Under the pieces are notes generated by a model, which saw nothing but the letters and a program-made list of their open reading frames with translations, was not told where the DNA came from and ran no database searches. From a virus: 64,000 nt of DNA. The first letter of the stretch is position 1. Each line of letters starts with the position of its first letter. The stretch lies in the IMG/VR virus record IMGVR_UViG_3300010354_000001, positions 1 through 64,000 of that record; one strand, 5' to 3'. Made by a program: the position numbers and the translations under genes. Below are positions 60,881 to 60,937 of this stretch, one piece after another.

Positions 60881-60937
60881 AGCAGGCATCAACGTGTTAG
60901 ATTAAAAGTCTAGTGTTGTTTTTGCTGTGAGCCTGCT
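60881..60937 (-). ncRNA. ACAGCA-stem RNA 4 carrying a tRNA-Lys(UUU) anticodon stem-loop mimic
   Basis: AGCAGGC-TC-ACAGCA...TAGA-CTTTTAA-TCTA...AT-GCCTGCT, followed by a T-run. Confidence 0.75.

What the first reader, a model, noticed from the sequence alone, without database searches (positions are those of the whole stretch)
60881..60937. Minimal RNA displaying a tRNA-Lys(UUU) anticodon loop: candidate anticodon-nuclease decoy
Seen: the smallest ACAGCA RNA (57 nt) carries only TAGA-CTTTTAA-TCTA. Known: CUUUUAA is the anticodon loop of bacterial tRNA-Lys(UUU), the substrate of anti-phage anticodon nucleases such as PrrC and the PARIS effector AriB. Inference: this is a protein-stabilised decoy substrate that protects host tRNA-Lys, a possible new anti-defence mechanism.
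Basis: partly seen in the sequence, partly recalled or inferred. Interest (0 to 1): 0.85.

Follow-up and report, generated by a model that had tools for sequence, protein, structure and literature searches.

The report
Phage Ro60-partner RNA mimicking tRNA-Lys anticodon arm
A 57-base phage RNA gene next to a Ro60-shaped protein gene belongs to a large, apparently undescribed family of small RNAs that display copies of tRNA anticodon loops (here lysine's), which may let phages bait enzymes that read or cut tRNA.

Summary
On the minus strand, 60937-60881 reads: 7-bp clamp helix, UC, ACAGCA, linker, UAGA-CUUUUAA-UCUA hairpin, linker, clamp. A CUUUUAA hairpin alone is not beyond chance: the phage genome has four others. 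The context makes it significant. A covariance model built only from 32 such RNAs of other loci hits the 64-kb window once, at exactly these coordinates (E 3.8e-6).

The neighbouring DUF2828 protein models as a Ro60 ring with a vWA domain. In 230 homologous loci from phages and bacteria, ACAGCA units lie in arrays on the gene strand (172 model hits against 0 opposite).

Among short cargos, 7-nt loops dominate. 39 fit the anticodon-loop pattern YUNNNRN, against 0.9 in shuffles. A34 is avoided. CUUUUAA is the commonest loop, on eight different stems. Other units carry whole acceptor-less tRNA bodies.

So this is a Y-RNA-like partner RNA displaying a tRNA-Lys anticodon-arm mimic. The decoy role against anticodon nucleases is plausible but untested. 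It is weakened because the same RNAs occur in ordinary bacterial chromosomal contexts.

I found no Rfam entry or paper describing the family. This scan has already noted it in at least 17 other genomes.

The parts
60881..60937 (-). RNA3, the finding: a minimal ACAGCA unit (clamp helix, handle, anticodon-stem-loop cargo)
   Evidence: Sequence. Only hit of model R1 in the window, 36.2 bits, E 3.8e-6, model positions 1-60 of 60.
60931..60937 (-). Clamp helix, 5' strand AGCAGGC; pairs with 60881-60887
   Evidence: The clamp covaries in all 7 pairs across the family.
60923..60928 (-). ACAGCA handle motif, presumed protein-binding site
   Evidence: Invariant in alignment A3. Present in 143 of 165 unique model hits.
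60898..60912 (-). Anticodon-stem-loop mimic UAGA-CUUUUAA-UCUA (loop 60908-60902): tRNA-Lys(UUU) loop with an A31-U39 closing pair
   Evidence: The same loop sits on 8 different stems in other units.
60881..60887 (-). Clamp helix, 3' strand GCCUGCU
60870..60880 (-). U-rich tail GUAUUUUUUAG: the family-typical spacer, and possibly the terminator of the array
   Evidence: Similar U-rich tails follow many viral units. Not called by the terminator scan.
60969..61046 (-). tRNA-like gene called 'Ile(UAU)' with a 13-nt anticodon loop, between RNA2 and RNA3; possible processing punctuation
   Evidence: ARAGORN. Rfam tRNA 53.6 bits with a 13-nt insert at the loop.
61055..61172 (-). RNA2: ACAGCA unit with a permuted tRNA elbow (T arm, closed acceptor, D arm)
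61182..61311 (-). RNA1: ACAGCA unit with a permuted tRNA elbow
   Evidence: A metatranscriptome contig of depth 184 covers 61100-61282.
61424..62884 (-). DUF2828 + DUF7788 gene (486 aa): Ro60-shaped HEAT ring plus vWA domain with MIDAS, the presumed protein partner
   Evidence: Pfam. AF2 model pLDDT 90.5. Foldseek top hits are all Ro60/Rsr/phage Ro60. D297/S299/S301 invariant.
58904..59602 (-). RlaP-family nucleotidyltransferase (RNA-repair-associated), 1.3 kb downstream on the same strand
   Evidence: Pfam PF10127, E 5.5e-22.

Best explanation
RNA3 is a small non-coding RNA of the Y-RNA kind. It is the third and smallest unit of an array transcribed with, or just after, the phage gene for a Ro60-shaped protein (DUF2828). 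Each unit has a variable clamp helix plus the invariant single-stranded ACAGCA(A) handle, which most likely docks on the outside of the protein ring as Y RNAs dock on Ro60 (inferred, about 0.7). Each unit also has an exchangeable cargo that points away from the handle.

In RNA3 the cargo is a mimic of the tRNA-Lys(UUU) anticodon arm. This mimicry is shown at sequence and family level, about 0.85-0.9. The particle would therefore present a lysine anticodon loop to proteins that read anticodon loops.

In a phage, with an RlaP repair-type nucleotidyltransferase nearby and tRNA clusters or RtcB ligase beside homologues, the most likely use is to engage a host enzyme that recognises or cuts tRNA-Lys, as bait, competitor or inhibitor. 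The anticodon-nuclease decoy is my single most likely mechanism, about 0.3-0.35, and it is untested.

Release from the array is probably helped by the adjacent tRNA-like element and the U-rich tail (inferred).
For: Family membership: model R1, built from other loci only, hits exactly 60881-60937(-) and nothing else in the window.

Linkage and strand: 154 of 229 DUF2828 loci carry at least one unit. There are 366 regex hits on the gene strand against 47 opposite. There are 172 model hits on the gene strand against 0 opposite.

Protein: the Ro60 fold is the top 12 PDB matches, TM 0.54-0.59 to phage and human Ro60, with an invariant MIDAS motif.

Mimicry in short cargos: 65 seven-nt loops against 12.1+-4.0 in shuffles; YUNNNRN 39 against 0.86 (maximum 5); CUNNNAA 27 against 0.12; CUUUUAA 6 against 0.
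- CUNNNAA hairpins with at least 5-bp arms: 1.51 per kb of cargo against 0.146 per kb of background.
- A at position 34 in 6 of 68, though A is the commonest cargo base.
- Loop identities follow real tRNAs, for example UUUGGGU for Pro with G37.
- UUU is the commonest anticodon, 11 of 97, and CUUUUAA sits on 8 distinct stems in viral and bacterial loci.
- Stems covary: 95.8% paired against 37-47% when slid.
- Sibling units carry whole acceptor-less tRNA bodies, including Lys UUU and Lys CUU.
- In one genome the unit's arm (CAAGA..UCUUG) differs from the cell's own tRNA-Lys arm (CAUGA..UCAUG) by one flipped pair.

Conservation: a related strain keeps all 57 nt while the spacer just beyond has four indels.

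Context: RlaP sits downstream, RtcB ligase beside the A511 homologue, and units lie inside the wV8 tRNA cluster.

Published context: Bas63 gp130, Ro60-like and upstream of tRNAs, is a counter-defence gene (PMC11482910). AriB recognises the tRNA-Lys anticodon stem-loop (10.1101/2024.01.02.573894). P2 OLD cuts anticodon stems and prefers tRNA-Thr(U) (PMC13648713); UGU is the second commonest loop here.
Against: - No experiment shows that the RNA exists as a 57-nt species or that DUF2828 binds it.
- The hairpin has only 4 pairs plus a C-A mismatch where tRNA has 5, and is only about 50% populated in the predicted ensemble.
- The same protein-RNA pair lies in non-phage, non-defence chromosomal contexts such as phosphate ABC transport, MerR, SDR and aminotransferase genes. 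The general role of the family therefore cannot be phage counter-defence.
- About 60% of minimal units carry hairpins that are not anticodon-like.
- Unit stems usually do not copy the host tRNA-Lys stem: L203 and L152 differ.
- The Bas63 phenotype is against Ppl, described as an ssDNA exonuclease (PMC12904381).
- RlaP is present in only 5 of 50 related viral records.
- A decoy must compete with abundant, modified tRNA-Lys. An unmodified arm may be a poor PrrC substrate (my own knowledge).
Confidence: 0.5

Rival explanations
1. Tether or adaptor rather than decoy. As Y RNA tethers Ro60 to PNPase, the anticodon-arm cargo recruits a tRNA-handling protein to the Ro60-like ring. Candidates are a modification enzyme, lysyl-tRNA synthetase, or a repair enzyme such as RtcB or RlaP. 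It might also recruit the ring to damaged tRNA. The purpose would be tRNA quality control or repair, and the phage borrows a cellular system.
For: The system occurs in bacterial chromosomes in housekeeping contexts. Known Ro60 particles work as tethers or gates (PMC4201824, PMC12135203). YrlA tRNA-like domains are substrates of tRNA enzymes (PMC4201824). Repair genes lie nearby in some phages.
Against: No partner is identified. Repair genes are not consistently linked: RlaP in 5 of 50 records, and an IscS-like neighbour in 4 of the 234 loci held. Panels of several different anticodon arms in one array fit a set of targets better than a single tether.
Confidence: 0.3
2. Relic or structural filler. 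The hairpin is a decayed remnant of a tRNA-derived cargo, or simply a stabilising hairpin. The lysine loop has no present function.
For: Family cargos range from full tRNA bodies to bare hairpins, which looks like a decay series. About 60% of minimal units have non-anticodon hairpins. The stem here is weak.
Against: The loop is kept while stems covary. A34 is avoided. The same loop recurs on 8 independent stems. The 57 nt are invariant in a diverged strain.
Confidence: 0.1
3. It is only the intrinsic terminator of the DUF2828 RNA operon and not a functional RNA of its own.
For: A GC-rich 7-bp clamp is followed within 4 nt by a U6 run, at the end of the array and before a gene gap.
Against: The terminator scan did not call it. 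The ACAGCA handle and full family architecture are present. Internal units of arrays elsewhere have the same U-rich tails yet are followed by further units. Acting as a terminator does not exclude a second role.
Confidence: 0.05
4. U-turn kissing loop. The YUNR-type loop serves fast base pairing with another RNA, as in antisense RNAs, and not protein mimicry.
For: YUNR loops are a known device of antisense RNAs (my own knowledge). The loops here fit YUNNNRN.
Against: Triplets follow the tRNA repertoire, with tRNA-specific 32/37/38 contexts and A34 avoided. Sibling units carry D and T arms. No complementary target was seen.
Confidence: 0.05

Closest known systems
Bacterial and mycobacteriophage Ro60 (Rsr) with Y RNAs YrlA and YrlB (Rfam RF02553; Chen et al. 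2014, PMC4201824)
   Same: Small RNAs are encoded next to a ring-shaped HEAT plus vWA protein. They have a terminal helix plus a conserved single-stranded motif and a modular body. tRNA mimicry is present. A small RNA without the tRNA elbow (YrlB) sits beside larger ones. Both link to RNA-repair loci.
   Different: The protein is DUF2828/DUF7788, not Pfam TROVE, with no sequence-level hit to solved Ro60. The handle is ACAGCA, not GNCGAA. No YrlA hit appears in the window even at E 10. The cargo here is the anticodon arm, the part that YrlA lacks. Arrays reach 9 units.
Thermus phage phiLo Ro60 with Yrl1 and Yrl2 (PMC12135203; PDB 9KOP, 9L5Y)
   Same: A phage-encoded Ro60-fold protein with adjacent partner RNAs. 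It is one of the closest structural matches to the model (9KOP TM 0.57/0.59, 9L5Y TM 0.54/0.57).
   Different: Those RNAs carry the CGAA motif and were shown to bind host PNPase. No tRNA anticodon mimicry is described for them.
Deinococcus radiodurans Yrn1
   Same: It can be drawn with an 'anticodon arm' of 5 bp (PMC4201824).
   Different: Its loop has 6 nt and no anticodon identity is claimed. It belongs to a different protein family and has a different handle.
Phage answers to tRNA-cutting defences: T5 tRNA-Lys against PARIS AriB (10.1101/2024.01.02.573894), over-expressed tRNA-Tyr against Septu/Retron Eco7 (reviewed in PMC13728456), and T4 Pnk/Rnl1 against PrrC (the last from my own knowledge)
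   Same: They have the same presumed selective pressure: nucleases that read the anticodon arm, with tRNA-Lys a favoured target.
   Different: Those are functional replacement tRNAs or repair enzymes. Here there is a bare anticodon arm on a protein-docking handle that cannot be charged or decode.
RNA mimics used as anti-defence, such as RNA anti-CRISPRs (repeat mimics) and phage sgRNA-like inhibitors (10.64898/2026.06.01.729453)
   Same: The concept is the same: a phage RNA that copies the RNA ligand of a host immune enzyme.
   Different: The target class differs, and function is not demonstrated here.

Membership tests
ACAGCA / DUF2828-associated Y-like RNAs (uncatalogued family defined here) | Significant score to a covariance model built from other members | tested here: met
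   R1: 36.2 bits, E 3.8e-6, full length, the only hit in the window.
ACAGCA / DUF2828-associated Y-like RNAs (uncatalogued family defined here) | Clamp helix of 6-10 bp, then 0-3 nt, then invariant ACAGCA, then an A/C-rich linker | tested here: met
   7 bp, UC, ACAGCA, AAAACAAC.
ACAGCA / DUF2828-associated Y-like RNAs (uncatalogued family defined here) | Lies within about 1-2 kb of a DUF2828 gene on the same strand | tested here: met
   About 0.5 kb downstream of the gene end at 61424, same strand.
YrlA (Rfam RF02553) | Reaches the Rfam gathering score of 69 bits | tested here: not met
   No YrlA hit in 60700-61500 at E up to 10. A mycobacteriophage unit reaches only 21.4 bits.
YrlA (Rfam RF02553) | GNCGAAN0-1G Ro-binding motif and a T/D-arm tRNA-like domain | tested here: not met
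   RNA3 has neither. RNA1 and RNA2 have the T/D domain but the ACAGCA handle.
Ro60 / TROVE protein (for the partner gene) | HEAT-repeat ring plus vWA domain with a MIDAS motif | tested here: met
   Model pLDDT 90.5. Ro60 structures are the top matches, probability 1.0. DxSxS is invariant.
Ro60 / TROVE protein (for the partner gene) | Match to Pfam TROVE or sequence similarity to solved Ro60 | tested here: not met
   Only DUF2828 and DUF7788 match. The profile against PDB gives no Ro60.
Ro60 / TROVE protein (for the partner gene) | Binds its adjacent small RNAs | not testable with these tools
   Needs EMSA, RIP or a structure.
tRNA-Lys(UUU) anticodon arm | 7-nt loop CUUUUAA with an A31-U39 closing pair | tested here: met
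   Loop at 60908-60902, flanked by A and U. The same loop occurs in real tRNA-Lys genes.
tRNA-Lys(UUU) anticodon arm | 5-bp stem | tested here: not met
   4 pairs, with C-A at the fifth position.
Intrinsic terminator | GC-rich hairpin immediately followed by a U run | tested here: inconclusive
   A 7-bp clamp (5 G-C pairs) encloses 43 nt, and the U6 run starts 4 nt after it. The scan did not call it.
Anticodon-nuclease decoy (functional class) | Bound or cut by PrrC, RloC, AriB or OLD-type nucleases, and protects tRNA-Lys | not testable with these tools
Only indirect context is available.

The most novel reading that the evidence does not exclude
Phages, and some bacteria, deploy a Ro60-like particle that presents panels of bare anticodon arms (Lys, Thr, Ser, Asn, Asp, Tyr, Phe and others) as baits or decoys for tRNA-cutting immune and toxin nucleases. 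This would be a general RNA-based counter-measure to anticodon nucleases, distinct from tRNA replacement and tRNA repair. RNA3 would be the lysine member in this phage.
Probability: 0.28. Interest if true: 0.9.

Novelty: new variant of a known kind. Interest (0 to 1): 0.75.

Why it matters
DUF2828 is a very large uncharacterised family. More than 3000 relatives turned up in one search, and 710 sequenced phages carry it, including Felix O1-like coliphages, Listeria A511, and Campylobacter, Staphylococcus and mycobacteriophages.

If its partner RNAs really display anticodon arms, three things follow:
- The Ro60/Y-RNA principle gains a new, widespread branch.
- Many "pseudo-tRNA" or mis-called tRNA genes in phage genomes are explained. 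For example, Gardann's "tRNA-Asn" is such a unit.
- An experiment becomes possible on whether phages can blunt tRNA-cutting defences (PrrC, RloC, PARIS, OLD) with RNA mimics. The particle could also serve as a handle-plus-cargo scaffold for presenting RNA hairpins in cells.

Tried and rejected
The closest protein relatives (71-85% identity) could not be fetched, so orthologous RNA3 copies were not compared directly.
- blastn of the locus against the phage collection found nothing.
- A literature search for DUF2828 returned only plant and tardigrade papers. Searches for decoy or anticodon-mimic RNAs found no description of this family. Burroughs and Aravind 2016 and the Sim/Wolin 2020 review are not held.
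- RNA-run contigs do not cover RNA3. It is too short for such libraries and for contig assembly, so this says nothing about expression.
- RlaP linkage is weak: 5 of 50 records, 2 adjacent.
- An IscS-like aminotransferase neighbour appears in only 4 loci.
- The exact-ACAGCA-plus-stem regex is not specific on its own: it gives 13 hits in the genome, and most besides the three array units fall outside this array and look like chance. Counts therefore rest on strand asymmetry, shuffles and the covariance model.
- MFE folding does not pick the anticodon hairpin as the single best structure.
- I considered a T-box or ribosome-binding role for the arm. I dropped it because the family occurs in Gram-negative phages and nothing supports it.

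Full report
**What is there.** The finding lies on the minus strand. Read 5' to 3' from 60937 to 60881 it is:
- a 7-nt clamp strand AGCAGGC, then UC;
- ACAGCA (60928-60923), then AAAA;
- CAAC, then AC;
- UAGA, the loop CUUUUAA (60908-60902), UCUA;
- ACAC, GUUG, AU;
- the other clamp strand GCCUGCU, followed by GUAUUUUUUAG.

It is the last of four RNA elements downstream of a 486-aa gene (62884-61424) that matches Pfam DUF2828 and DUF7788. The other three are two larger ACAGCA units whose cargo is a circularly permuted tRNA elbow (61311-61182 and 61172-61055), and a tRNA-like gene with a 13-nt anticodon loop (61046-60969). Further downstream on the same strand lie small ORFs, an RlaP-family nucleotidyltransferase, Dam and Mom. 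The genome is a complete 114-kb virus record with terminal repeats. It is found in freshwater, lake and river metagenomes of 13 studies. It encodes only four tRNAs and no tRNA-Lys.

**Is it more than chance?** Taken alone, no. ACAGCA occurs as often as expected in the window. The genome holds five CUUUUAA hairpins with at least 4-bp arms. Folding gives a z-score of only -1.7. The family-type structure is 0.8 kcal/mol above the MFE, and the hairpin is about half populated. Taken in context, yes. I built a covariance model (R1) from 32 minimal units of other loci, leaving the window out. Searched over both strands of the window, it gives one hit: 60881-60937 minus, full length, 36.2 bits, E 3.8e-6.

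**The family.** I fetched 230 loci encoding relatives of the protein, from viral contigs, metagenomes and bacterial or archaeal genomes.
- A scan for ACAGCA preceded by a helix strand whose partner lies 20-230 nt downstream gives 366 hits of score 9 or more on the gene strand against 47 on the other.
- These make 342 unique units, in arrays of 1-9, present in 154 of 229 loci.
- R1 finds 172 units at E 0.01 or better in 200 loci, all on the gene strand.
- The clamp and the apical stem covary: 95.8% of cells are paired against 37-47% when partners are slid, and all 12 pairs show double changes. The units were partly selected for pairing, so this test is partly circular.
- Units also occur in well-known phages. 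Three lie upstream of the gene in Listeria phage A511, which has an RtcB ligase 1.3 kb downstream. Three lie inside the tRNA cluster of coliphage wV8. In mycobacteriophage Gardann there are three, one of them overlapping the annotated "tRNA-Asn".
- Rfam 15 has no model for them. YrlA is not hit in the window and reaches only 21 bits on the Gardann unit.

**The protein.** An AlphaFold model built with 73 sequences has mean pLDDT 90.5. Its best PDB matches are all Ro60: Xenopus and human Ro60, Deinococcus Rsr and the Ro60 of Thermus phage phiLo, with TM 0.54-0.59 for the last. The vWA MIDAS motif is invariant. By sequence it is not a TROVE member. Phage Ro60 with adjacent Y-like RNAs is known (PMC4201824, PMC12135203), but those RNAs carry a CGAA-type motif.

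The result is positive.
- Among 179 short cargos, 7 nt is the commonest loop size: 65 of 182 hairpins.
- 39 loops fit YUNNNRN and 27 fit CUNNNAA. In 100 dinucleotide shuffles the means are 12.1, 0.86 and 0.12. CUUUUAA occurs 6 times against 0.
- CUNNNAA hairpins with at least 5-bp arms are ten times denser in cargos than in the rest of the loci, even though that background includes real tRNA genes.
- Position 34 is A in only 6 of 68, although A is the commonest cargo base.
- Loop contexts follow tRNA identities, for example Pro with G37 and Asp as CUGUCAC.
- Pooling both detection routes, UUU is the commonest triplet (11 of 97), then UGU (6), then GCU, UUG, GUU, GUA, CAU, UGA, GUC and GAA at 5 each. 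CUUUUAA sits on eight different stems in viral and bacterial loci.
- About 17 further units carry D arm, anticodon arm and T arm without an acceptor stem. These include Lys UUU, Lys CUU, Met, Phe, Arg and Tyr; a Thr UGU unit of this kind was seen.
- In one Oscillospiraceae genome the unit's arm differs from the cell's own tRNA-Lys arm by one flipped pair. In two other genomes the stems differ.
- About 60% of minimal units have other hairpins, so anticodon arms are a major cargo class but not the only one.

**Conservation and expression.** A related strain in a DNA run keeps all 57 nt unchanged. The 10 nt just beyond it carry four insertions, and the neighbouring RNAs carry several changes. In one metatranscriptome a contig of depth 184 covers RNA1 and RNA2, against 3-7 for contigs on the protein gene. 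This is a hint that the array is abundant as RNA. RNA3 itself is not covered, which is uninformative for a 57-nt RNA.

**How it most likely works.**
- Shown: family membership, linkage to a Ro60-fold protein, and anticodon-arm mimicry under selection.
- Inferred by analogy with Ro60/Y RNA: the clamp plus ACAGCA docks on the protein and the cargo is exposed.
- Inferred from context: the exposed lysine arm engages a protein that reads the tRNA-Lys anticodon arm. In a phage the prime candidates are tRNA-cutting defence nucleases. AriB recognises that arm (10.1101/2024.01.02.573894). P2 OLD cuts anticodon stems and prefers tRNA-Thr(U) (PMC13648713). UUU and UGU are the two commonest loops here.
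- A Ro60-like gene upstream of the tRNA cluster of Felix O1-like phage Bas63 is a counter-defence gene (PMC11482910). I could not verify that it is the orthologue of wV8 gp47, though that gene is conserved in 251 Felix O1-like records.

**Cautions.** That Bas63 phenotype is against Ppl, described as a DNA exonuclease (PMC12904381). The same protein-RNA pair sits in ordinary chromosomal neighbourhoods of Clostridia, Breznakiella and Anaerocolumna, so the family's basic role is cellular. That role may be tRNA surveillance or repair, as proposed for Rsr/YrlA. A tether or adaptor role is therefore a serious rival. I put:
- RNA3 as a partner RNA displaying a Lys-arm mimic at about 0.85;
- docking on DUF2828 at about 0.7;
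- decoy or bait for an anticodon nuclease at about 0.3.

**Novelty.** It is a new variant of the Ro60/Y-RNA kind. The protein family, the handle, and the cargo type (the anticodon arm, the very part YrlA lacks) are all new. I found no paper or Rfam family describing it. This scan has already flagged the ACAGCA family in at least 17 other genomes, with follow-up agents reaching similar readings. I reached mine from my own tests.

Noticed in passing
window 60969-61046 (-): The tRNA-like gene called Ile(UAU) has a 13-nt anticodon loop (CAUAUUUUAUGGG) between normal D, T and acceptor arms. In a related strain the loop carries a substitution and a 1-nt deletion (61006, 61009). It is probably not a decoding tRNA. 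It may be processing punctuation or another mimic.
   Followed up: partly
window 61351-61415 (-), roughly 61343-61432: An element overlaps the DUF2828 stop codon and weakly resembles RAGATH-18 (21.8 bits, E 0.23). Contigs of three runs break or diverge at exactly 61342/61343 and 61432, and DNA depth rises there. It therefore behaves as a repeated or mobile insert. Earlier notes read it as a TnpB omega-RNA scaffold copy.
   Followed up: partly
G000 68036-68104 (-), outside the window: ACAGCA preceded by a 15-bp clamp helix whose partner lies 33 nt downstream. This may be a fourth unit elsewhere in the genome, or a chance hit in coding sequence.
   Followed up: no
window 61046-61100 in a related strain (run X19): An RNA-library contig replaces the 53 nt between RNA2 and the tRNA-like gene with 126 other letters. 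The array's content varies between strains.
   Followed up: no
L233 4534-4604 (Mycobacterium phage Gardann): The annotated tRNA-Asn lies inside a handle-bearing unit with the variant motif ACAGUA. The unit carries a CUGUUAA hairpin, a T arm, a closed acceptor and a D arm. It looks like a mis-annotated Y-like RNA.
   Followed up: partly
L007, L010, L014, L015, L016, L017, L019, L026, just downstream of the DUF2828 gene: A second conserved long hairpin, with arms UUUUGAAAC...GUUUCAAAAUGA and a variable apex, sits directly before tRNA genes. Its nature is unknown.
   Followed up: no
window 57567-59602 (-): RlaP nucleotidyltransferase, Dam methyltransferase and Mom lie in a row downstream of the RNA array. 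This puts RNA-repair and DNA-modification functions side by side.
   Followed up: no
L124 and L071 records (L238, L239): Two phages that carry a Lys anticodon-arm unit also carry a real tRNA-Lys(UUU) gene in a nearby tRNA cluster. In the L124 record's copy (L238), position 39 is C instead of the usual U.
   Followed up: partly
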